A DNA stretch of 64,000 bases from an uncultured Nitrospiraceae bacterium (GCA_964592255.1 CAZQCI010000001.1:15885-79884), one strand, 5' to 3'; counted from the first letter of the stretch, positions 1,177-9,480 are shown. Made by a program: numbers and translations. The notes: generated by a model from the sequence alone, not told the origin.

Positions 1177-2352
1177 ATGCCAAAGTTTAGATACAATTTA
1201 GCAACTCTTTTAGTGTGCTCTTTCATCTTGGCTTTGAACCCTCTTGCCCATGCGGATGACTTGAACGAAATTTCACAACACATCAAGTCAACACCGGACG
1301 AAATTGCCAAAGGTAAAACGGTTTTCATGACCAATTGTATGAGTTGTCATGGCTCCGAAGGAAAAGGCGATGGACCTGCTTCAGCGGCTTTTAACCCAAA
1401 ACCACGTAATTTTACAGCAGAGCCCTTCAAACAAGGTGGAAGCCCATCGGCTGTGTTTTATACCATTACCCATGGCTTAAATAGTATGCCTGGTTTTGCC
1501 TCACTCTCCGTGGCTGACCGCTTGGCCGTTGTTCACTTTCTTCTTTCTCTTTCTCCGAGTAAAGCCAACGATACTCCCGAAAGCTTAGCTAAAATCGGTT
1601 TAGGTCCCGATTTTAAACCATTAGCAGGATTTAAAGGTGACAATAAAACAGAGCTACCACTGGACTTTATCATCGAAAGAATGGCGCAAGATGGAGACGT
1701 AAATAAATTAGATTACAAAAAAATTGTTGCCGATATGAAAGCGCAAAAGGAACAAGAAGCTAAACCTCAACAAGTTACAACAACAACCACACCCAATCTT
1801 GAAAAAGGAAAAGCATTATTTGAATCTTGCAAAACTTGTCATGGGAACGCTGGGGAAGGTAGTTTTTTGGCCAAGGCCCCTCCTTTAGCGGGACAAAGTA
1901 CAGACTATCTCATTACCCAGTTACATCATTTTCAAAAAGGCATTCGTGGAGCCCACCCTAACGATGTCGATGGTCTGAGAATGCGCCCGATGTCTCGCGT
2001 GTTGCGTGATGAACAAGATGTCATTAATGTCGTCAACTACATTCATTCTCTCAAACCCACAGCCCCCATCAACACAATGCCTGCAGGCAATCCACAAAAA
2101 GGGCAAGCTGCCTTCTCAACATGTCTTGCTTGCCATGGACCAGATGCTAAAGGTGTCGCGGCTATGAAGGCTCCCTCACTTCGCTACTTGCCCGACTGGT
2201 ATATAGCTCAACAAATAAATAATTTTAAACAAGGTTATCGCGGCGTGGATACAAGAGATACCATGGGTGGTCAAATGCGGGGCATGTCTATGAGTGTCCC
2301 TAACCAACAGGCGGTTCAAGATATTGTTTCCTATATTCAAACTCTTAAATAG
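1177..2352 (+). CDS. Periplasmic triheme c-type cytochrome (three class-I cytochrome c domains)
   Basis: Signal peptide MPKFRYNLATLLVCSFILALNPLAHA. Three CxxCH motifs (CMSCHGSEGKGDG, CKTCHGNAGEG, CLACHGPDAKG), each followed by a distal Met region. It sits immediately upstream of coxB. Confidence 0.8.
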   Translation: MPKFRYNLATLLVCSFILALNPLAHADDLNEISQHIKSTPDEIAKGKTVFMTNCMSCHGSEGKGDGPASAAFNPKPRNFTAEPFKQGGSPSAVFYTITHGLNSMPGFASLSVADRLAVVHFLLSLSPSKANDTPESLAKIGLGPDFKPLAGFKGDNKTELPLDFIIERMAQDGDVNKLDYKKIVADMKAQKEQEAKPQQVTTTTTPNLEKGKALFESCKTCHGNAGEGSFLAKAPPLAGQSTDYLITQLHHFQKGIRGAHPNDVDGLRMRPMSRVLRDEQDVINVVNYIHSLKPTAPINTMPAGNPQKGQAAFSTCLACHGPDAKGVAAMKAPSLRYLPDWYIAQQINNFKQGYRGVDTRDTMGGQMRGMSMSVPNQQAVQDIVSYIQTLK

Positions 2353-2367
2353 GAGAAGTGGAGGAAT

Positions 2368-2478
2368 ATGCAACATTCTGAAGAAAACCATATTGAGTCT
2401 TTAACCAAAAATATCTTTCTCTTAACTTTAGGGAGCCTTGCCGCTTACGTTGCGGCGGTGATCTTGTTCGTCTTATAA
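2368..2478 (+). CDS. Unannotated small ORF encoding a 36-aa single-TM peptide (MQHSEENHIESLTKNIFLLTLGSLAAYVAAVILFVL). It may be a small oxidase-associated subunit.
   Basis: It is not in the supplied ORF track. ATG at 2368 is preceded by AGGAGAAGTGGAGG, the strongest SD in this region. It has one clear hydrophobic helix. It occupies the 140-nt gap between the cytochrome c gene and coxB. Confidence 0.35.
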   Translation: MQHSEENHIESLTKNIFLLTLGSLAAYVAAVILFVL

Positions 2479-2493
2479 AGGAAGTCTATTTTT

Positions 2494-3189
2494 ATGATAC
2501 AAGCCTTCGTCCCCAGCGCCTCCAGTTACAGCCAACAGATGGACAATCTGTTTACGCTTATTTTTGTCATTATGACCTTCTGGTTTTTTGCAGGCCAATT
2601 CGTCATCATCTACTTTCTCATCAAATTTAAACGCAAAGAAGGCGTCCCTTCACTTTATCTCACCGGTGAAAATAAGGCTCACAAAAAGTGGATTAGCTGG
2701 CCTCATAATTTATTGCTCATTTGTGATGTTGTGATGGTGATTTTTTCGATTATGGCTTGGTACCATATTAAACAATATCTTCCTCCGGCTGAATCCACCA
2801 TCAAAGTAATCGGTCAGCAATGGGCCTGGACTTTTGTTGATCCAGGCAAAGATGGCAAACTCGACACCTCCGATGATATTGTCACCATTGACGAACTCCA
2901 TGTGCAAGTCGATAAAACTTACCACTACCTGCTCACCACCAAAGATGTTTTACACAGTTTTTTTGTTCCCGTTTTCCGCTTAAAACAAGATGCCATCCCA
3001 GGCAGAGAAATTGTCGGCTGGTTTAAGCCGACTAAAACAGGGAATTATGACATTTCTTGTGCAGAAATCTGCGGCATTGGACATGGATTGATGGGAGCCC
3101 GGATCATTATAGAAACTCCGGAAGAACACCAAAAATGGGTCGCCTCTCATACTCCGGCAACTCCGATTAAATTGGGGGAAAATAACTAA
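2494..3189 (+). CDS. coxB: Cytochrome c oxidase subunit II
   Basis: Two N-terminal TM helices. CuA ligand motif H..CAEICGIGHGLM (…DISCAEICGIGHGLMGARI…). It is followed 1 nt later by subunit I. Confidence 0.9.
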   Translation: MIQAFVPSASSYSQQMDNLFTLIFVIMTFWFFAGQFVIIYFLIKFKRKEGVPSLYLTGENKAHKKWISWPHNLLLICDVVMVIFSIMAWYHIKQYLPPAESTIKVIGQQWAWTFVDPGKDGKLDTSDDIVTIDELHVQVDKTYHYLLTTKDVLHSFFVPVFRLKQDAIPGREIVGWFKPTKTGNYDISCAEICGIGHGLMGARIIIETPEEHQKWVASHTPATPIKLGENN

Positions 3190-3190
3190 T

Positions 3191-4861
3191 ATGTCAGACC
3201 ACGGTACACATCACGAAAGTTTTTTTAAAAAATATTTTTTCTCAACCGATCATAAAATCATCGGGATGCAATATTTATTTACCGGGATGTTTATGGGATT
3301 AGCCGGCGGCTTTATGGCTTATGTGTTCCGCATGCAGTTGGCTTTTCCTGGAATCAATGTTCCTGGCTTTGGCCCTGTTTCTCCTGCAGCTTATAACTCC
3401 CTCATTACAAACCATGGATCTATCATGATCTTTTGGTTTGCAATGCCAGTTTTAATTGCGGCCTTCGGCAACTATCTCATTCCTCTTATGATCGGATGCG
3501 ATGATATGGTTTTCCCGCGCCTCAACCGACTTTCTTATCAAATTTTTCTTGTTAGTGTCATCGTTCTGTTTGCTTCCTTCTTTGTTCAAAATGGAGGGTT
3601 TGGAGGGGCCTGGACAGCCTACCCTCCTTTATCTTCTAAAGCAGAATATAGTCTTACTCCCATGGGGGCACCTATATGGTTGTTAGCGGTGGCCCTAGAG
3701 TTTGTAGCCTTCTTGTTAGGGGGAATTAATTTCATCACTACACTCATGAATTCGCGGGCTAAAGGGATGAAGATGTATGACATCCCGATGGTCATTTGGA
3801 TGATTGTCATCGCTAGTATTTTATTCATGGCCTCGGTAGGGCCGTTAGTGGCAGGTGCGGTCATGCTGCTCTTCGATCAACTGTTAGGAACCTCATTCTA
3901 CGATGCGGCCAAAGGTGGAGATCCGTTGTTATGGCAACATTTATTTTGGTTTTTCGGTCATCCTGAAGTGTATGTTGTGTTGTTGCCTCCTATTGGAATG
4001 GTTGTGGAAGTGATCACTACTTTTTCACGCAAAAAATTGTTTGGTTATAAGTCGTTGCTTTACAGTGTTTTTGTAACTGGAGTTTTAAGCTTCTTAGTTT
4101 GGGCCCACCATCAATTTGTAGCCGGAATCGATCCACGCATGGCCAATATCTTTACGATAACCACCCTGCTCATTTCCGTACCCATTGCCGAAATTTGCTT
4201 TTTAATGATGGCGACACTTTATGGAGGATCGATTGAATTCAAAACTCCTATGTTGTTCGCATTAGCTTTTTTAATGGAGTTTATTTTAGGAGGTGTCACC
4301 GGAATTTTCTTAGGGGCCTCAGGCTTGGATATTTATTTTCACGACACTTACTTTGTTGTCGCCCACTTCCATTACACCTTTGTACCGATTGCCGTTATTG
4401 GTTTATTTACTGGAATCTATTACTGGTATCCTAAAATGTTTGGTCGGATGATGTGTGAAAAATTGGGCAAAATTCACTTTTGGGGCACTATCATCCCTTT
4501 CAACGCTATCTTCATCCCTCTATTCATTTTAGGAATGCACGCTCATCACCGCCGTATTTATGATTATCGTAACTTTCCAGAATTAGCCACAACAGGGCAA
4601 TTTCATTTAATGCAAATTGCCACAGTGGCTTTAATTGCAATGATCTTGTTTCAAGGTGTGTTCTTTTACAATTTCTTTAGAAGCTTGTTTAAAGGTGAAA
4701 AAGCTGGCTCCAATCCTTGGAAGGCCAACACTTTGGAATGGGTGGCTCCTTCCCCTCCTCCTCATGGCAACTTTAAAGAAATGCCCGAAGTTTATCGTGG
4801 GCCTTATGAATACTCTGTGCCAGGAAGAAAGTCGGACTACTGGCCGCAGAATGAACCTTAA
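3191..4861 (+). CDS. ctaD: Cytochrome c oxidase subunit I (heme-copper oxidase catalytic subunit)
   Basis: 556 aa with 12 TM helices. Canonical motifs WFFGHPEVYVVLLPPIGM and HHQFVAG…HFHYTF, plus the HAHH region. Confidence 0.95.
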   Translation: MSDHGTHHESFFKKYFFSTDHKIIGMQYLFTGMFMGLAGGFMAYVFRMQLAFPGINVPGFGPVSPAAYNSLITNHGSIMIFWFAMPVLIAAFGNYLIPLMIGCDDMVFPRLNRLSYQIFLVSVIVLFASFFVQNGGFGGAWTAYPPLSSKAEYSLTPMGAPIWLLAVALEFVAFLLGGINFITTLMNSRAKGMKMYDIPMVIWMIVIASILFMASVGPLVAGAVMLLFDQLLGTSFYDAAKGGDPLLWQHLFWFFGHPEVYVVLLPPIGMVVEVITTFSRKKLFGYKSLLYSVFVTGVLSFLVWAHHQFVAGIDPRMANIFTITTLLISVPIAEICFLMMATLYGGSIEFKTPMLFALAFLMEFILGGVTGIFLGASGLDIYFHDTYFVVAHFHYTFVPIAVIGLFTGIYYWYPKMFGRMMCEKLGKIHFWGTIIPFNAIFIPLFILGMHAHHRRIYDYRNFPELATTGQFHLMQIATVALIAMILFQGVFFYNFFRSLFKGEKAGSNPWKANTLEWVAPSPPPHGNFKEMPEVYRGPYEYSVPGRKSDYWPQNEP

Positions 4862-4897: not shown

Positions 4898-5488
4898 GTG
4901 GCAAGAATTATGTCACAGGGAGTTCCCATCGCTACCACTCGTTCAGCCACAGGTATTCGCACGGCTAAGCTCGCCACATGGTGGGTTATTGGTTCTGAAA
5001 TTGTTATTTTCGGCGGTTTGTTAGTCGCCTATTTATTACTCAGAATCCGTAATGAAAGCTGGTCTCATGATGCCTCTCACACCATTACCATGGCTGGCGC
5101 TTTTAATACCCTTGTCCTTTTAACCTCTAGCTATTTTGTTGTGCTGGCTCACAAAGCGGCTGAAGAAGGAAATGGGGTCAAAGCTAACCGCTTTTTATGG
5201 TATACCATCTTAGGTGGACTCATTTTCATGATGGTGAAAGCTTATGAATACACCACAGATATTTCTGAGGGCTTTACTTTATTTACAGGAGTTTTCTGGT
5301 CCTTTTATTACACCGCCACAGGATTACACGGCTGCCACGTACTAGCAGGTATGGTCATTATGGCTATTGTCGGCAATGATGCCAAAAAAGGTAAAAATCT
5401 ACATCGAGTAGAATGCATTGGCATTTACTGGCACTTTGTCGATCTTGTATGGATTTTTCTTTTTCCTTTGCTTTATATTGCGAAGTGA
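4898..5488 (+). CDS. coxC: Cytochrome c oxidase subunit III
   Basis: GTG start. 196 aa, polytopic. The C-terminal motif resembles subunit III (…HFVDLVWIFLFPLLYI). It directly follows subunit I. Confidence 0.8.
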   Translation: MARIMSQGVPIATTRSATGIRTAKLATWWVIGSEIVIFGGLLVAYLLLRIRNESWSHDASHTITMAGAFNTLVLLTSSYFVVLAHKAAEEGNGVKANRFLWYTILGGLIFMMVKAYEYTTDISEGFTLFTGVFWSFYYTATGLHGCHVLAGMVIMAIVGNDAKKGKNLHRVECIGIYWHFVDLVWIFLFPLLYIAK

Positions 5489-5573: not shown

Positions 5574-5879
5574 ATGTCAAACGAACAGGCACATTCTCAC
5601 ACGAACTATTTTAAAATCTGGGCTACACTAGTTGTCCTTTTAGTCATCAGCGTTTTGGGACCTATGCTCGGCATCAAGGCCATTACCCTCATTACCGCTT
5701 TTGGTATTGCCATTGTTAAAGCTTTTATGGTGGCCTCCTACTTCATGCACTTAAATGTAGAAAAAAAATATATTTGGTACATGCTGCTCACCATGCTGGC
5801 ATTGATGATTTTTTTCTTTTTCGCCATTGCTCCCGATATCATGAATACTTCAGGAACGAATTGGCGTAGCATCCCATGA
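5574..5879 (+). CDS. Cytochrome c oxidase subunit IV (prokaryotic caa3-type small subunit, CtaF-like)
   Basis: 101 aa with three TM helices. The N-terminal His-rich stretch EQAHSHTNYFKIW is typical of the bacterial COX4 family. It overlaps the next gene by ATGA. Confidence 0.6.
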   Translation: MSNEQAHSHTNYFKIWATLVVLLVISVLGPMLGIKAITLITAFGIAIVKAFMVASYFMHLNVEKKYIWYMLLTMLALMIFFFFAIAPDIMNTSGTNWRSIP

Positions 5880-6439
5880 CATCGCCGTCAAAAAAAACAG
5901 CTATCTCCAATCCCGTTTTGGGCATGCTGTTTTTTATCTTTACAGAACTGATGGTGTTCTCCGCCTTTATCAGTGCCTATAGCATCGTCCGCTCTAGTGC
6001 TATTAACTGGCCTCCACTGGACCAGCCCAGACTTCCTGTTTTAGCTACAGCCTTTAATTCCGCAGCCCTTCTCCTAAGCGGCTTTTTACTTTATGGAGGC
6101 TATCGATTCTTTCTAAAAGAAGGCTCTTCGAAACGGGTCAAACACTTCTTTTTTGCATCCTTAGTTTTAGGTTTATTTTTTGTCTGCTTTCAAGGGTGGG
6201 AATGGGTCAAACTTATTCGGTTTGGCTTAACCATGACCTCCAGTGTGTACGGTAGTTTCTTCTATCTCATTATTGGTTTTCATGGTCTGCATGTTTTGGC
6301 TGCGTCCTTCACTTTAAGCTACGCCTACCATCGTTTATCAAAGAGTTTGCTCCGGCGTGAAGTTTTTGCAGCCTGTTTGTGTTTCTGGATTTTTGTAGTT
6401 GGAGTATGGCCTTGTATTTATTATTGGGTATATTTCTAA
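5876..6439 (+). CDS. Second heme-copper oxidase subunit III-family membrane protein
   Basis: 187 aa, polytopic. Region FFYLIIGFHGLHVLAASFTL resembles the subunit III helix VI/VII His region. It has 4-nt overlaps with both neighbours. Confidence 0.55.
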   Translation: MTSPSKKTAISNPVLGMLFFIFTELMVFSAFISAYSIVRSSAINWPPLDQPRLPVLATAFNSAALLLSGFLLYGGYRFFLKEGSSKRVKHFFFASLVLGLFFVCFQGWEWVKLIRFGLTMTSSVYGSFFYLIIGFHGLHVLAASFTLSYAYHRLSKSLLRREVFAACLCFWIFVVGVWPCIYYWVYF

Positions 6440-6636
6440 TGAAAACATTAAATATATTCATTTTAATCGCCCTGATTTTTATCCCTACCCTATCGATGGC
6501 CTGTGATATGTGCGTTTCTGGAACGGGAGGAAGCGTGGGGGCTTTCCGTTGGTCCTCTCTATTTCTTAGTGTGATGCCATTTGGATTTTTTGGCTCCCTT
6601 TTTTTCTATCTACGTCATAAGATGAAAAACTTGTAA
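6439..6636 (+). CDS. Small two-TM membrane protein with a CDMC (CxxC) motif between helices
   Basis: The preferred start is ATG 6439, which overlaps the upstream TAA (taATG). The track start 6379 would overlap the previous gene by 60 nt. Sequence: MKTLNIFILIALIFIPTLSMACDMCVSGTGG…MPFGFFGSLFFYL. Confidence 0.35.
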   Translation: MKTLNIFILIALIFIPTLSMACDMCVSGTGGSVGAFRWSSLFLSVMPFGFFGSLFFYLRHKMKNL

Positions 6637-6637
6637 C

Positions 6638-7045
6638 ATGCCTTCTTTATTATTACCAAAACTGATTGCATCTCTTAATGCCATTAGCCTTTTTTTGCTT
6701 CTTTCTGCTTTCATAGCAGTCAAACAGAAAAAATTTGACCTACATAAAAAACTGATCCTAGCAGCTTTAGTTTCTTCCACCCTTTTTCTGACTTGCTATC
6801 TGATCCATCATTACCAAGTAGGTTCGATCCCTTATCCTCGTCACGATTGGACGCGCACGGTTTATTTTTTAATTTTAATTCCTCATGTCATTTTAGCAGT
6901 CGGTATGTTGCCTTTTTTAGTGATGGCCCTGCGTTATGCTTTTCAAGATCAGCGAGAAAAACACAAAAAAATAGTCCGTTGGGTTTTTCCAATTTGGGTC
7001 TATGTTTCTTTTACAGGCATTGTTGTTTACTTCATGTTGTATTAG
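6638..7045 (+). CDS. DUF420-family membrane protein; this family is commonly encoded beside the SCO/cox/ctaA genes
   Basis: 135 aa with four TM helices. His-containing helices YLIHHYQ and LILIPHVILAVG. Context with cox and ctaA. Confidence 0.55.
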   Translation: MPSLLLPKLIASLNAISLFLLLSAFIAVKQKKFDLHKKLILAALVSSTLFLTCYLIHHYQVGSIPYPRHDWTRTVYFLILIPHVILAVGMLPFLVMALRYAFQDQREKHKKIVRWVFPIWVYVSFTGIVVYFMLY

Positions 7046-7058
7046 GTAGCCTTTAATT

Positions 7059-8015
7059 ATGCGGCTTCTTATTCTTTCAACTACTTTTCTAGCCTTTATT
7101 GTCATCATTTTTGGAGCTTTTGTTCGTTTATCTGATGCCGGGCTTGGTTGCCCAGATTGGCCTGGTTGTTATGGACATCTTTCCGTATCCGCAGCTCAAG
7201 AGGCAGGACAAACTCTAGAAGCCCCTAAAGCTTGGAAAGAAATGATTCATCGTTATGCGGCAGGAACATTGGCTTTGATGATTCTGGCCATTTTTGTTTT
7301 TTCATTAGTTCAGCGCCGCCGACATCCTTCCACTCCGCTTCTTCTTCCAACGCTGTTGATGGTCATGGTTTTATTTCAAGCTCTTCTTGGAATGTGGACA
7401 GTCACTTTAAAACTCAATCCACTCGTCGTTTTAGGACACTTGCTCGGTGGCTTTGCTACTTTGAGTTTATTGTGGGTGTTATTCATACAATGGCATAACC
7501 GTGGGATGACTCTTACAAGAACCCCCTCACGCTTAACCACACTCGCACTCTTCCTTCTCATTCTCCAAATTATTTTGGGAGGCTGGACTTCCTCTAATTA
7601 TGCCGCCTTCGTCTGCCCTGACTTTCCCACTTGTCTCGGGCATTGGTGGCCTACCATGAGTTTGAAAGAGGCCTTCACATTCTGGCAGCAAATAGGCCCT
7701 AATTACGAAGGGGGTGTCATGGGCTTAGAGGCACGAGTCACCATTCAAATGATGCATCGGTTGGGCGCCTTATTAGTTTTTGTAGTCTTTGTTGTGCTAG
7801 GCATTCAAAATTTATGCTTAAACGAAAAACGTTTTAAAAGAATAGGGTTTCTCATCACTCTTCTGCTTCTTATTCAAATTGCCTTAGGCATCGGCAATGT
7901 TTTGCTGGCTCGTCCCTTAGGAATTGCCGTAGCCCACAATGGTGTGGCCGCTTTACTTCTTTTAACTACCCTCACTTTAATCTACTCATCAAACCCAAAA
8001 GGAGTTAAACTTTAA
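7059..8015 (+). CDS. ctaA: Heme A synthase (COX15/CtaA)
   Basis: CPDWPGC motif in the first periplasmic loop. Second Cys pair FVCPDFPTC. Eight TM helices with conserved His (GHLLGG, MMHRLGA). Confidence 0.8.
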   Translation: MRLLILSTTFLAFIVIIFGAFVRLSDAGLGCPDWPGCYGHLSVSAAQEAGQTLEAPKAWKEMIHRYAAGTLALMILAIFVFSLVQRRRHPSTPLLLPTLLMVMVLFQALLGMWTVTLKLNPLVVLGHLLGGFATLSLLWVLFIQWHNRGMTLTRTPSRLTTLALFLLILQIILGGWTSSNYAAFVCPDFPTCLGHWWPTMSLKEAFTFWQQIGPNYEGGVMGLEARVTIQMMHRLGALLVFVVFVVLGIQNLCLNEKRFKRIGFLITLLLLIQIALGIGNVLLARPLGIAVAHNGVAALLLLTTLTLIYSSNPKGVKL

Positions 8016-8028
8016 TAAAGGAGAATGT

Positions 8029-8517
8029 ATGCTTCCCCTAAAATGGCAACTCATAGCAATTCCTGTCACATTACTTTATGCCAATATTTTTGAATGGCTT
8101 TTTCACAAATATATTTTGCATGGTTTAGGAAGAAAAAAGAATAGTTTTTGGAGTTTCCATTGGCAGGAACATCATGTGGAAGCCAGAAAAAATGGTTTTT
8201 TAGACCCACACTATAAACGTTCTCTCTGGAGTTGGAATTCAAAATCCAAAGAAGCTTTGGCTTTAACTGTCCATGTAGTCATACTCTTTCCCATCGTTTT
8301 TTATGCTCCGATTATTTATCTCACGGTCATTTATGCCTCGCTTCGTTATTATTTCACTCACAAAAAATCCCATTTAGATCCAGAATGGGCCAAAAGGAAG
8401 CTCCCTTGGCATTACGACCATCATATGGGTAAAAATCAGCACGCCAACTGGGGTGTAACCCGTCCTTGGTTTGATTGGGTCATGGGAACAAGAGAAAAAA
8501 TGGAAAACCGTCCTTAA
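8029..8517 (+). CDS. Fatty acid hydroxylase/sterol desaturase superfamily membrane protein (di-iron His-box enzyme)
   Basis: Histidine boxes HKYILHG, HWQEHHVEARK and HYDHHMGKNQH. 162 aa. It is inserted between ctaA and ctaB. Confidence 0.5.
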   Translation: MLPLKWQLIAIPVTLLYANIFEWLFHKYILHGLGRKKNSFWSFHWQEHHVEARKNGFLDPHYKRSLWSWNSKSKEALALTVHVVILFPIVFYAPIIYLTVIYASLRYYFTHKKSHLDPEWAKRKLPWHYDHHMGKNQHANWGVTRPWFDWVMGTREKMENRP

Positions 8518-8619: not shown

Positions 8620-9480
8620 ATGTTTGCCTACTTAAATCTGACAAAGCCACGTATCAGTTTGCTTTTTGCCATCACGGGTTTAACCGCCTTGATCATGGAA
8701 GGAAGTCTTTCTTATCAATCGACTCGTTTGTGGATTTTAGTAGCCGCTATCTTCATGACAGGAGGGGCCGCGAACGCCCTCAACCAATATTTTGAACGGG
8801 ACGTGGATAAACAAATGGCCCGCACTGCTAAAAAACGTCCTTTGCCATTAGGGAAAATGACACCCATGGCTGCATTAATTTTTAGCATCGGCATGGGAGC
8901 CTTAGGCACTTATCTTTTATGGCATTACGGCACTCCTTTAGCCGCCTTTCTTGGTTTAGCTACAATCGCTTTCTACAGTTTTTACTATACGTTATGGCTT
9001 AAACCCCGCACTCCTTATAACATTGTCATTGGAGGAGCCGCTGGAGCGACAGGGCCTCTCATTGGTTGGGCAGCAGCAACAGGAACCCTTTCTTGGGCAT
9101 CGTTTGTGATGTTTCTTATCATTTTCTTTTGGACTCCACCTCATTTTTGGGCGCTCGCTCTATGTTGCAAAGAAGATTACAAAACCGTTTCTTACCCTAT
9201 GTTTCCACTGGTTAAAGGAGACGCCGCTACACGCTCACAAATTTTGTGGTATTCCTTAAGCTTGCTTCCTCTTTCAGCCAGCTTGTACTTTCTTAAAAGT
9301 TCCGGACTTTTTTTCTTCTTTACCTCTTTAGCGCTCAATTTAATTTTTATCTGGCAAGCCTGGCGAGCCTATCAACAAAAAACCATTAAAGTTTATTGGC
9401 AGCTATTTGCGTATTCGATTGTATATTTATTGGTTTTGTTTGTTGTAATGATGATTGATTTGAATTTTAAAAAACCATGA
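8620..9480 (+). CDS. ctaB: Protoheme IX farnesyltransferase (heme O synthase, UbiA family)
   Basis: UbiA-type Asp-rich motifs NQYFERDVDKQMARTAKRPLP and FFWTPPHFWALAL. 286 aa, polytopic. Confidence 0.9.
   Translation: MFAYLNLTKPRISLLFAITGLTALIMEGSLSYQSTRLWILVAAIFMTGGAANALNQYFERDVDKQMARTAKKRPLPLGKMTPMAALIFSIGMGALGTYLLWHYGTPLAAFLGLATIAFYSFYYTLWLKPRTPYNIVIGGAAGATGPLIGWAAATGTLSWASFVMFLIIFFWTPPHFWALALCCKEDYKTVSYPMFPLVKGDAATRSQILWYSLSLLPLSASLYFLKSSGLFFFFTSLALNLIFIWQAWRAYQQKTIKVYWQLFAYSIVYLLVLFVVMMIDLNFKKP

What the first reader, a model, noticed from the sequence alone, without database searches (positions are those of the whole stretch)
2368..2478. Unannotated 36-aa single-TM ORF with the strongest RBS of the cox region, between the cytochrome c gene and coxB
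It is absent from the ORF track, probably through a length cutoff. ATG 2368 sits 8 nt after AGGAGAAGTGGAGG. It encodes MQHSEENHIESLTKNIFLLTLGSLAAYVAAVILFVL, a polar head plus one TM helix.
Small single-TM subunits and assembly factors of heme-copper oxidases are routinely missed by annotation. Its placement inside the operon argues that it is real.
Basis: seen in the sequence. Interest (0 to 1): 0.5.

Follow-up and report, generated by a model that had tools for sequence, protein, structure and literature searches.

The report
Conserved tiny membrane protein beside coxB
The 36-codon reading frame just upstream of the cytochrome oxidase subunit II gene is a real, widely conserved gene for a one-helix membrane peptide that has no name or described family. 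It is most likely an overlooked small subunit, or helper, of this type of aa3 cytochrome c oxidase.

Summary
The ORF at 2368-2478 (+) exists as described and encodes a 36-aa peptide with a polar head and one transmembrane helix. It also has the strongest Shine-Dalgarno match in the cox cluster.

**It is a real gene.**
- All 14 related loci found through CoxB or CoxA that include the sequence upstream of coxB carry an alignable ORF directly there (one of them cut by the contig end). Their GC content ranges from 41% to 68%.
- A profile search of 1.84 billion proteins found 49 clusters, mostly 34-37 aa. The consensus is MAxxxxxDxLAKxxFxITMxGxxxYIxAVxxFVL-stop.
- All seven members checked for context sit immediately before COX2-COX1; where the contig extends further, COX3-COX4_pro-COX3 follow.
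- dN/dS is 0-0.18 in the one clade with unsaturated synonymous sites.
- The RNA-structure rival fails, with fold z-scores from -1.6 to +2.1.

**It is undescribed.** There is no match in Pfam, NCBIfam or PDB sequences. It shows no relation to ba3 subunit IIa or Paracoccus subunit IV. Every database name found is "hypothetical protein".

**Function is inferred, not shown.** I read it as a peptide with its N-terminus in the cytoplasm and C-terminus outside. One conserved helix face would pack against the oxidase, probably subunit II or I, making it an accessory subunit. A transient assembly factor is the main rival.

The parts
2351..2364 (+). Shine-Dalgarno region: AGGAG (2351-2355, overlapping the TAG stop of the cytochrome c gene) and GGAGG (2360-2364, 3 nt before the ATG)
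   Evidence: Sequence read. Anti-SD duplex of -9.3 kcal/mol, the strongest of 15 cox-cluster starts. GAGG-type motifs also precede the orthologous ORFs in L001-L004, L011 and L027-L030.
2368..2478 (+). Small gene: a 36-aa single-pass membrane peptide (3,986.6 Da average mass) belonging to an unnamed family that always sits directly upstream of coxB
   Evidence: ORF. Leave-one-out profile score of 45.7 bits, E = 3.5e-13. Orthologs in 14 of 14 unbiased loci. Mass.
2368..2412 (+). Polar N-terminal head (residues 1-15), predicted to be cytoplasmic. Family-conserved positions are an acidic residue at 10, L12, A/T13 and K14.
   Evidence: Column statistics: D or E in 50 of 53 at position 10, A in 44 of 53 at position 13, and K/R within the last 4 head residues in 49 of 53.
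2413..2475 (+). Transmembrane helix (residues 16-36) ending at the C-terminus. The conserved face is F17, T20, Y27, A30/V31 and F34-V35-L36.
   Evidence: F17 is invariant (53 of 53), T20 occurs in 46 of 53, and an aromatic residue at 27 in 53 of 53. Conservation periodicity peaks at 100-110 degrees.
2494..3189 (+). coxB, subunit II, with two hydrophobic helices and the CuA motif H...CAEICGIGHGLM. This is the invariant downstream neighbour and the most likely partner.
   Evidence: Pfam COX2 and TIGR02866 CoxB hits. Sequence. Closest solved structures are A-type aa3 subunit II.
3191..4861 (+). coxA, subunit I, of A1 type (GHPEV motif)
   Evidence: Sequence. Best PDB matches are aa3 subunit I at about 1e-124.
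4898..5488 (+). COX3-like subunit (196 aa); the Pfam match covers only the C-terminal half of the COX3 model
   Evidence: Pfam COX3, model positions 128-255 of 258.
5574..5879 (+). Subunit IV (COX4_pro / caa3_sub_IV family)
5876..6439 (+). Second COX3-like subunit (187 aa)
   Evidence: Pfam COX3, model positions 78-255 of 258.
1177..2352 (+). Tri-haem c-type cytochrome, the upstream neighbour (di-haem in Myxococcota relatives). Probable electron donor, and not an obligatory neighbour of the peptide.
   Evidence: Three Cytochrom_C stretches. L011 has ctaB in this position instead.

Best explanation
The ORF is a genuine, translated gene for a 36-aa bitopic membrane peptide.

**Proposed mechanism.**
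1. The peptide is made from the polycistronic act/cox message, using its own strong Shine-Dalgarno site.
2. It inserts with the 15-residue polar head in the cytoplasm. The single helix crosses the membrane, so the free C-terminus (...FVL) ends at the periplasmic surface.
3. One conserved face of the helix (F17, T20, Y27, A30/V31, F34) packs against the transmembrane region of the aa3-type cytochrome c oxidase encoded immediately downstream.
4. The partner is most probably subunit II and/or subunit I.
5. The peptide therefore acts as a small accessory subunit that supports assembly or stability. This is what subunit IIa does for ba3, CcoM and CcoQ for cbb3, and CydX for bd oxidases.

**Shown:** the gene is real, under purifying selection, and tightly linked to coxB.

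**Inferred:** the topology, the binding to the oxidase, the binding partner and the stabilising role.
For: **Conserved synteny.**
- An alignable ORF lies directly upstream of coxB in every unbiased relative whose upstream sequence is held.
- L001-L004 came from the genome scan with CoxB. L007-L012 came from the metagenome scan (L008 is cut by the contig end). L027-L030 came through CoxA at 82-85% identity.

**Family size.**
- The profile search of 1.84 billion representatives gave 49 clusters at E <= 1e-3, nearly all 34-57 aa.
- A second search gave 58 hits.
- Seven of seven members checked for context lie directly before COX2; wherever an upstream gene is identifiable it is a c-type cytochrome. 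Where the contig reaches further, COX1-COX3-COX4_pro-COX3 follow.

**Selection.**
- In seven Myxococcota loci dN/dS is 0-0.18, with variable sites by codon position of 8, 7 and 31.
- In the window's own clade pN is 0.14-0.46 against a saturated pS of 0.74-0.92.

**Specificity.**
- The leave-one-out profile scores 45.7 bits against a next-best of 5.8 bits in the window.
- Peptides from L027-L030, which were not in the profile, score 21.7-38.9 bits.

**Linkage is to coxB, not to cytochrome c or ACIII.**
- L011 has ctaB upstream of the peptide.
- L015, L018, L024 and L026 have no act genes adjacent.

**Topology and interface.**
- K/R lies just before the helix in 49 of 53 members.
- The C-terminal tails of the 12 long forms carry a mean net charge of -3.7.
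- Conservation has helical periodicity, peaking at 100-110 degrees.

**Precedents.** Small single-helix subunits are known for all oxidase families, and they were often found late (PMC3128077, PMC4742706, PMC12648545).
Against: - There is no direct evidence of translation, membrane insertion or association with the oxidase.
- No solved structure exists for this oxidase subtype. The best PDB relatives are Rhodobacter and Paracoccus aa3 at modest similarity.
- No fusion of the peptide to CoxB or any other subunit was found that would prove a physical partner. All hits are 33-72 aa.
- The peptide evolves much faster than the catalytic subunits. In the window clade it is 28-67% identical, against 61-72% for CoxB and 82-85% for CoxA. 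That fits a peripheral subunit, but equally a loosely constrained helper.
- Gene adjacency cannot separate a stoichiometric subunit from a transient assembly factor.
Confidence: 0.58

Rival explanations
1. The peptide is a transient assembly factor rather than a stable subunit. It would help insert or mature CoxB or CoxA (N-tail export of subunit II, haem a or copper loading) and then leave, as the 52-aa CcoS does for cbb3 oxidase.
For: - The operon is rich in biogenesis genes: SCO1/SenC, DUF420, CtaA and CtaB.
- A strong SD site and fast sequence evolution are both compatible with a helper.
- CcoS is a precedent for a small single-helix assembly factor that works with SenC (PMC12648545).
- The peptide has the topology of an uncleaved signal anchor. 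CoxB here lacks a signal peptide, yet it must export its N-tail (sequence; this step is inference).
Against: - Short forms have no periplasmic residues at all, since the chain ends at ...FVL. Direct handling of periplasmic copper is therefore unlikely.
- The gene always sits with the structural genes, directly before coxB, rather than with ctaA/ctaB or SCO1.
- One-face conservation along the entire helix points to a fixed packing interface.
Confidence: 0.22
2. The peptide is a membrane tether or docking element for the electron donor. It would hold the upstream multi-haem cytochrome c, or ACIII, against the oxidase, making it a supercomplex linker.
For: - In most loci the gene lies between a cytochrome c gene and coxB.
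- The window clade and L022 have ACIII genes directly upstream.
- Long forms carry an acidic periplasmic tail that could contact a cytochrome.
Against: - L011 has the peptide and coxB with ctaB, not a cytochrome c, upstream.
- Several loci have no act genes nearby.
- Most members, including the window's, have no periplasmic tail at all.
- Flavobacteriales ACIII-aa3 loci lack the peptide.
Confidence: 0.08
3. The product has no function. On this reading the ORF is either a chance open frame, a leader whose translation merely couples cytochrome c and coxB expression, or the coding-frame shadow of a cis-acting RNA hairpin or terminator at 2438-2458.
For: - A 36-codon ORF alone is not improbable in AT-rich DNA (my own estimate is about 10% per frame).
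- The top terminator-like hit of the 11-kb scan lies inside the ORF.
- The gaps to both neighbouring genes are 15 nt, which is compatible with coupling.
Against: - Amino-acid sequence is conserved across 41-68% GC with dN/dS of 0-0.18 and a third-position excess of variable sites.
- The start, length and C-terminal FVL-stop are all preserved.
- Fold energies are not unusual, with z from -1.6 to +2.1. The hairpin appears only where Ala-Ala...Ala-Ala codons occur.
- Terminator-like counts do not exceed the shuffles (18 against 13.1 +/- 4.3).
- There is no Rfam hit.
Confidence: 0.03
4. The peptide is a divergent homolog of subunit IIa (CbaD) of B-type ba3 oxidases.
For: It has the same gene position directly upstream of subunit II, the same size (34-41 aa), the same head-plus-one-helix design, and probably the same orientation with the N-terminus in the cytoplasm (PMC3128077).
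Against: - The oxidase here is A1-type, and its subunit II already has both transmembrane helices.
- The PxGT motif and conserved Trp of the IIa family are absent (PMC3128077).
- None of the 53 members hits Pfam CoxIIa.
- The family profile does not find 1ehk_C or 1xme_C in the PDB even at E <= 10.
- hhalign probability against the Thermus IIa sequence is 0.5% (that sequence was verified).
Confidence: 0.02

Closest known systems
Subunit IIa (CbaD) of B-type ba3 cytochrome oxidases (Thermus thermophilus 1ehk/1xme chain C; Aquifex aeolicus; PMC3128077)
   Same: It is a 34-41 aa peptide with a polar head and one transmembrane helix. [quoted passage not shown] Its presumed role is in stability or assembly.
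   Different: IIa accompanies oxidases whose subunit II has a single helix, and it fills the place of the missing TM1. Here subunit II has both helices and the enzyme is A1-type. There is no sequence relationship (hhalign 0.5%, no Pfam CoxIIa hit, no PxGT/Trp motif).
Subunit IV of alpha-proteobacterial aa3 oxidases (Paracoccus denitrificans 1qle_D/7ate_D; Rhodobacter sphaeroides 1m56_D)
   Same: It is a small single-helix protein with a polar, His/Glu-rich N-terminal head, bound to an A-type aa3 oxidase. It was discovered only through structure determination (PMC4742706, section 12).
   Different: There is no detectable homology (hhalign 0.45%; not found by the profile in the PDB). As I recall, it is not encoded upstream of coxB. 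The operon here already carries a separate COX4_pro-type subunit IV.
CcoM and CcoQ of cbb3 oxidases, and CydX, CydS, CydH and CioY of bd-type oxidases
   Same: They are peptides of about 30-60 aa with one helix that associate with a terminal oxidase and affect assembly or stability. They are hard to annotate, and sequence families differ between lineages while the structural role is shared (PMC4742706, PMC12648545, PMC4325964).
   Different: The partner enzymes differ (C-family haem-copper oxidases or bd oxidases). CcoQ and CcoS have the opposite topology, N-out/C-in (PMC12648545). There is no sequence similarity.
ActG, the single-helix subunit encoded in some ACIII (act) gene clusters (PMC5928083)
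   Same: It is a predicted one-helix protein encoded in the same super-operon region (act genes followed by oxidase genes), and it is not universally present.
   Different: ActG belongs to the act cluster. The peptide here is separated from actF by SCO1 and the cytochrome c gene. It stays with coxB in loci that have no adjacent act genes. A sequence comparison was not possible.

Membership tests
B-type oxidase subunit IIa (CbaD, Pfam CoxIIa) | [quoted passage not shown] | tested here: met
   15-nt gap to coxB in the window. Same position in all related loci.
B-type oxidase subunit IIa (CbaD, Pfam CoxIIa) | Peptide of about 34-41 aa with one transmembrane helix | tested here: met
   36 aa; residues 16-36 have a mean hydropathy of +2.57.
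B-type oxidase subunit IIa (CbaD, Pfam CoxIIa) | Partner is a B-family oxidase whose subunit II has only one transmembrane helix, with IIa replacing TM1 | tested here: not met
   CoxB has two hydrophobic helices and CoxA carries the A1-type GHPEV motif. The best PDB matches are A-type aa3 enzymes; ba3 subunit II matches only at 3e-5 over the CuA domain.
B-type oxidase subunit IIa (CbaD, Pfam CoxIIa) | Sequence similarity, including the PxGT motif and a conserved Trp (PMC3128077) | tested here: not met
   No such motif in the 53-member alignment. 0 of 53 members hit Pfam CoxIIa. The profile does not find 1ehk_C or 1xme_C at E <= 10. hhalign probability is 0.5%.
aa3 subunit IV, Paracoccus/Rhodobacter type | Sequence homology to 7ate_D / 1m56_D | tested here: not met
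   Query sequence verified style check. hhalign probability is 0.45%. Not retrieved by the profile search of the PDB.
aa3 subunit IV, Paracoccus/Rhodobacter type | Bound at the subunit I/III surface of an A-type oxidase in a solved structure | not testable with these tools
   No structure exists for this oxidase subtype and no multimer prediction was available.
CcoQ / CcoM / CcoS (cbb3) and CydX-type (bd) small subunits | Match to the family models (FixQ, NF041600 CcoM, YbgT_YccB) and a C-family or bd partner enzyme | tested here: not met
   Only one of 53 members touches the CcoM model, at E = 0.051, which is chance level. No FixQ or CydX hits. The partner is an A-type aa3 oxidase.
ActG of alternative complex III | Encoded within the act cluster, next to actF | tested here: not met
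   In the window, SCO1 and the cytochrome c gene lie between actF (1-279) and the ORF. The peptide occurs beside coxB in loci without adjacent act genes.
ActG of alternative complex III | Sequence similarity to ActG | not tested
   No ActG sequence was available. The PDB profile search returned no ACIII chain.
Unnamed family defined here: coxB-upstream 33-72-aa peptides (most 34-37 aa) | Fits the consensus M-A-x5-[DE]-x-L-A-[KR]-x-x-F-x-[IL]-T-x6-[YFW]-x-x-A-V-x-x-F-V-L, usually ending at the stop codon | tested here: met
   Leave-one-out profile score of 45.7 bits, E = 3.5e-13. The window has E10, L12, T13, K14, F17, T20, Y27, A30, V31, F34, V35, L36.
Unnamed family defined here: coxB-upstream 33-72-aa peptides (most 34-37 aa) | Located immediately 5' of coxB in a coxB-coxA-COX3-COX4_pro-COX3 cluster | tested here: met
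   Window genes. The same order is seen in L015, L022, L024 and L026-L030.
Functional class: stable small accessory subunit of a terminal oxidase | Co-purifies with, or is resolved in a structure of, the oxidase | not testable with these tools
   This needs biochemistry or cryo-EM. Only gene linkage and one-face helix conservation are available.

The most novel reading that the evidence does not exclude
The peptide is a stoichiometric extra subunit that marks a structurally uncharacterised subclass of A1-type aa3 oxidase. That subclass would comprise CoxB, CoxA, two five-helix COX3 paralogues, a COX4_pro subunit, this peptide, and a second conserved 65-92-aa CxxC protein. The helix would occupy a site with no counterpart in solved oxidases. 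One candidate site is the space left by the missing TM1-2 of subunit III. Another is the cytoplasmic end of subunit II near the K-pathway entrance, where the conserved acidic head residue could matter for proton uptake or for docking of ACIII.
Probability: 0.15. Interest if true: 0.6.

Novelty: new member of a known kind. Interest (0 to 1): 0.45.

Why it matters
- **A gap in what is known.** Small one-helix subunits have repeatedly turned out to be needed for the assembly, stability or activity of terminal oxidases (IIa, CcoM, CcoQ, CydX). A 2025 review of bacterial small membrane proteins lists none for aa3-type enzymes (PMC12648545).
- **A concrete candidate.** This family is conserved and specific to one oxidase subtype. 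That subtype is encoded downstream of alternative complex III in the window's clade and is common in Myxococcota and related 'delta-proteobacterial' lineages from soil, water and the ocean. No structure of it exists.
- **Annotation.** The genes are unnamed, inconsistently called (missed in GCA_019695305.1) and absent from Pfam and NCBIfam. A family model would fix annotation in many genomes.
- **Experiments.** Anyone purifying or imaging this oxidase or its supercomplex would know which peptide of about 4 kDa to look for.
- **Caveat.** It extends a well-known theme rather than overturning anything.

Tried and rejected
- **Direct homolog search with the peptide.** I got round this by putting a 61-aa ortholog first in the alignment.
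- **Look-up of the window peptide's own contig.** Nothing on record. Named CoxA relatives are 'bacterium', 'Deltaproteobacteria', 'Bdellovibrio sp.' and 'Myxococcota' MAGs.
- **Collection scans with CoxB.** The genome and metagenome scans returned nothing closer than 62% identity. Closer relatives were reached only through CoxA.
- **Known families.** No Pfam, NCBIfam or PDB-sequence match for the peptide or for the 53 family members. I rejected homology to ba3 IIa and to Paracoccus subunit IV.
- **RNA-element reading.** No Rfam hit in the window. The terminator-like hairpin at 2438-2458 is neither unusually stable nor conserved.
- **Stop-codon readthrough into CoxB.** The ORF and coxB share a frame in the window and in L015. 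They do not in L004, L018, L022 or L024 (coordinates). No fused proteins exist among the hits. Rejected.
- **Structure prediction of peptide plus CoxB as one chain.** No multimer tool was available. I skipped a helix-only model of the peptide as uninformative.
- **Literature.** The F. johnsoniae ACIII-aa3 supercomplex paper (PMC6004266) is not held. I could not check it for unassigned helices.
- **Flavobacteriales-type loci.** L014 has actF directly followed by coxB, with no small ORF. The family is therefore not a general feature of ACIII-linked oxidases.

Full report
**1. The observation**

- The + strand carries ATG 2368 to TAA 2476-2478, encoding MQHSEENHIESLTKNIFLLTLGSLAAYVAAVILFVL, 36 aa.
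- It fills most of the 141-nt gap between a tri-haem c-type cytochrome gene (1177-2352) and coxB (2494-3189), with 15-nt spacers on each side.
- Residues 1-15 are polar (mean hydropathy -1.56). Residues 16-36 are strongly hydrophobic (+2.57).
- Two Shine-Dalgarno (SD) motifs precede the start: AGGAG at 2351-2355 and GGAGG at 2360-2364.
- The best duplex with the anti-SD sequence is -9.3 kcal/mol, the strongest of 15 starts scored in the cox cluster.
- A 36-codon open frame in roughly 40%-GC DNA is not improbable on its own. My estimate is about 10% per frame. The case therefore rests on comparison with other genomes.

**2. Gene context**

- Genes on the + strand are tightly packed, in this order:
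  - actF 3' end (1-279, 48% identical to the ActF-position protein of L027)
  - SCO1/SenC (306-1085)
  - tri-haem cytochrome c
  - the small ORF
  - coxB, with the CuA motif
  - coxA (3191-4861, GHPEV motif, A1-type)
  - COX3 (4898-5488)
  - COX4_pro (5574-5879)
  - a second COX3 (5876-6439)
  - a 65-aa ORF (6439-6636)
  - DUF420 (6638-7045)
  - ctaA (7059-8015)
  - a small FA_hydroxylase-family gene (8029-8517)
  - ctaB (8620-9480)
- This is an aa3-type cytochrome c oxidase operon following an alternative complex III (ACIII) operon.

**3. Conservation at the syntenic position**

- Scans with the window's CoxB retrieved Myxococcota MAG loci L001-L004 from genomes and L007-L013 from metagenomes. 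CoxB identity is 56-62%.
- Every such locus that includes sequence upstream of coxB has a small ORF there that aligns with the window peptide:
  - L004 (GC 0.68): MTEKNSPDTLAKTIFWLTMGGAALFISTIFLFVL
  - L011 (GC 0.43): MDNNEADVLAKKVFQITFIAAVLFMLSVIFFIL
  - L001-3, 7, 9, 10, 12: 54-61-aa forms such as MAKRLSSEEYAKRAFVITALMAAAYI..., with an acidic C-terminal tail
- Closer relatives were reached through CoxA at 82-85% identity. L027-L030 have the same operon from actD to ctaA (ctaB follows in L028 and L029). Each has a 34-36-aa ORF in the same place:
  - L027: MADNDNVTPEGEAKYFFYFTLGLLAAYVGAVLIFVF
  - L028: MNNQQQDCPNALAKNIFLGTMGALGLYVVAVIAFVL
  - L029: MENHSEENPEQAVKHIFFIAFGMYVAFLLSVVFFVL
  - L030: MENHETPEHTVKHIFFTAFGIYAAFVLTVLLFVL
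- In total, 14 of 14 loci found without reference to the peptide carry it. L008 is truncated by the contig end.
- The ORF was not called as a gene in L027 (NCBI GCA_019695305.1).
- The two Flavobacteriales-type loci (CoxB 25% identical) differ. The one I read (L014) has actF directly followed by coxB, with no small ORF. L005 gave no profile hit.

**4. Family size and specificity**

- A profile of the first orthologs was searched against 1.84 billion representative proteins. It found 49 clusters at E <= 1e-3, mostly 34-37 aa, with some of 50-57 aa.
- A word-seeded search with the 53-member alignment found 58 hits, all 33-72 aa.
- The consensus is MAxxxxxDxLAKxxFxITMxGxxxYIxAVxxFVL, and the chain usually ends right there.
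- Seven members were checked for context: P0015, P0017, P0022, P0026, P0036, P0053 and P0059.
  - All lie directly before COX2, and wherever an upstream gene is identifiable it is a c-type cytochrome.
  - COX1-COX3-COX4_pro-COX3, a gene of about 90 aa and (in L024) CtaA follow where the contig reaches that far.
  - One sample is from TARA Oceans, and one locus sits on a 4.25-Mb contig.
- A profile built without the window peptide scores the window ORF at 45.7 bits (E = 3.5e-13) among 1,878 six-frame segments. The next best scores 5.8 bits.
- The L027-L030 peptides, never included in the profile, score 21.7-38.9 bits.

**5. Selection on the protein**

- Seven long-form loci have unsaturated synonymous sites. 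Pairwise Nei-Gojobori dN/dS over 44 codons is 0-0.18. Variable sites by codon position are 8, 7 and 31.
- In the window clade synonymous sites are saturated (pS 0.74-0.92), while pN is 0.14-0.46.
- The peptide evolves faster than its neighbours: 28-67% identity, against 61-72% for CoxB and 82-85% for CoxA. Start, length, frame and the C-terminal FV[LF]-stop are nevertheless kept.

**6. RNA-level rivals**

- A terminator-like hairpin at 2438-2458 is the top hit of the consensus scan. Such hits are no more frequent than in shuffles (18 against 13.1 +/- 4.3).
- Folding the 3' part of the ORF plus 25 nt in 11 loci gives z-scores from -1.6 to +2.1 and no common structure.
- The hairpin appears only where the peptide has Ala-Ala-Tyr-x-Ala-Ala, whose GCN codons are self-complementary.
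- There is no Rfam family in the window.
- The ORF and coxB share a frame in the window but not in most relatives. No fused proteins exist. Readthrough is rejected.

**7. What the peptide looks like**

- K or R lies within the last four head residues in 49 of 53 members.
- The tails of the 12 long forms are acidic, with a mean net charge of -3.7. By the positive-inside rule the N-terminus is cytoplasmic and the C-terminus periplasmic (inference).
- Conserved positions are F17 (53 of 53), T20 (46 of 53), an aromatic at 27 (53 of 53), A30, V31, F34, V35 and L36.
- Conservation along the helix has its spectral peak at 100-110 degrees. One helix face is therefore conserved, as expected for a helix packed against a fixed protein partner.
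- In the head, position 10 is D or E in 50 of 53 members and position 13 is Ala in 44 of 53.

**8. Which partner**

- The invariant neighbour is coxB.
- In L011 the upstream gene is ctaB, not a cytochrome c.
- In L015, L018, L024 and L026 no act genes are adjacent.
- Linkage is therefore to the oxidase structural genes, not to the cytochrome c or to ACIII.
- I infer binding to the oxidase membrane core, most probably subunit II and/or I. I cannot show it.

**9. Comparison with known small subunits**

- The closest analogue by design and gene position is subunit IIa of B-type ba3 oxidases. It is 34-41 aa, lies directly upstream of subunit II, and is often unannotated (PMC3128077).
- Membership fails on four counts:
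  - The enzyme here is A1-type, and its subunit II has both helices.
  - The PxGT/Trp signature is absent.
  - There is no Pfam CoxIIa hit in 53 members.
  - hhalign probability is 0.5% against the verified Thermus sequence.
- Paracoccus and Rhodobacter subunit IV has a similar head-plus-helix design. It is unrelated (0.45%), and the operon already has a COX4_pro subunit IV.
- The CcoQ, CcoM and CydX models do not match.
- The family profile finds no PDB chain at E < 0.7.
- ActG of ACIII is excluded by position.
- Every name attached to family members is 'hypothetical protein'.
- A 2025 review of bacterial small membrane proteins lists oxidase-associated peptides only for bd and cbb3 enzymes (PMC12648545).

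**10. Verdict**

- The ORF is a real gene (about 0.97).
- It belongs to a conserved, unnamed family tied to one subtype of aa3 oxidase.
- My estimates for its role:
  - stable accessory subunit: 0.58
  - transient assembly factor: 0.22
  - cytochrome c or supercomplex tether: 0.08
  - no protein function: 0.03
  - divergent IIa homolog: 0.02
- It adds a new sequence family to a well-known class. This is moderately interesting and directly testable by mass spectrometry or cryo-EM of the enzyme.

Noticed in passing
window 6439-6636 (+); also L022 10334-10612, L024 5924-6184, L026 14170-14433, L028 8205-8414, L029 8165-8401, L030 8230-8427, L027 about 8255-8455: A second conserved small gene sits in the same oxidase cluster. 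It encodes 65-92 aa, and in the window its ATG overlaps the stop of the second COX3 gene. The protein has a signal-peptide-like N-terminus, an invariant A-C-x-x-C motif, then a C-terminal transmembrane helix with a conserved Pro and a basic tail. It has no Pfam or NCBIfam hit and is not called in L027. It may be a thiol or copper-handling assembly protein.
   Followed up: partly
window 8029-8517 (+): A 162-aa FA_hydroxylase-family (di-iron, His-motif) membrane protein with a strong SD site (-8.7 kcal/mol) lies between ctaA and ctaB. L028 and L029, whose loci include both ctaA and ctaB, have nothing there. Its possible relation to haem or quinone modification is unknown.
   Followed up: partly
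window 1177-2352 (+) compared with L001 5005-5811, L002 5167-5826, L015 5348-6001: The cytochrome c upstream of the small ORF has three haem-binding domains (386-396 aa) in the window clade. In Myxococcota relatives it has two (about 217 aa), and several of those have lipoprotein-type signal sequences.
   Followed up: no
window 4898-5488 and 5876-6439 (+): Two COX3-like genes flank the COX4_pro gene, an arrangement reminiscent of coxMNOP. Both match only the C-terminal part of the Pfam COX3 model, so helices 1-2 of canonical subunit III appear to be missing from both.
   Followed up: no
window 2438-2458 (+): A GC-rich hairpin with a T-rich tail lies inside the small ORF and is the top terminator-like hit of the region. 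It is not conserved and not unusually stable (z = -0.6). It is explained by self-complementary Ala codons.
   Followed up: yes
window 2368-3189 (+); L015 6001 and 6118: The small ORF and coxB are in the same reading frame, separated by TAA plus five codons. A readthrough product would be a topologically sensible three-helix CoxB. The shared frame is not conserved in L004, L018, L022 or L024, and no fused homologs exist.
   Followed up: yes
L027 4167-4277 (NCBI GCA_019695305.1, JAIBAG010000001.1): The orthologous 36-aa ORF, and also the CxxC small ORF, have no called gene in this public assembly. Equivalents in L028-L030 were called, so annotation of the family is inconsistent.
   Followed up: partly
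L011 3791-3892 and 4001 (metagenome contig WASW01028406.1): In this low-GC relative the peptide gene follows ctaB rather than a cytochrome c gene. It is separated from coxB by an unusually long spacer of about 108 nt whose function is unknown.
   Followed up: no
L026 11366-13218: On a 4.25-Mb contig the coxA region is split into several short called genes (108, 90 and 77 aa). This probably reflects frameshift errors in a long-read assembly rather than biology.
   Followed up: no
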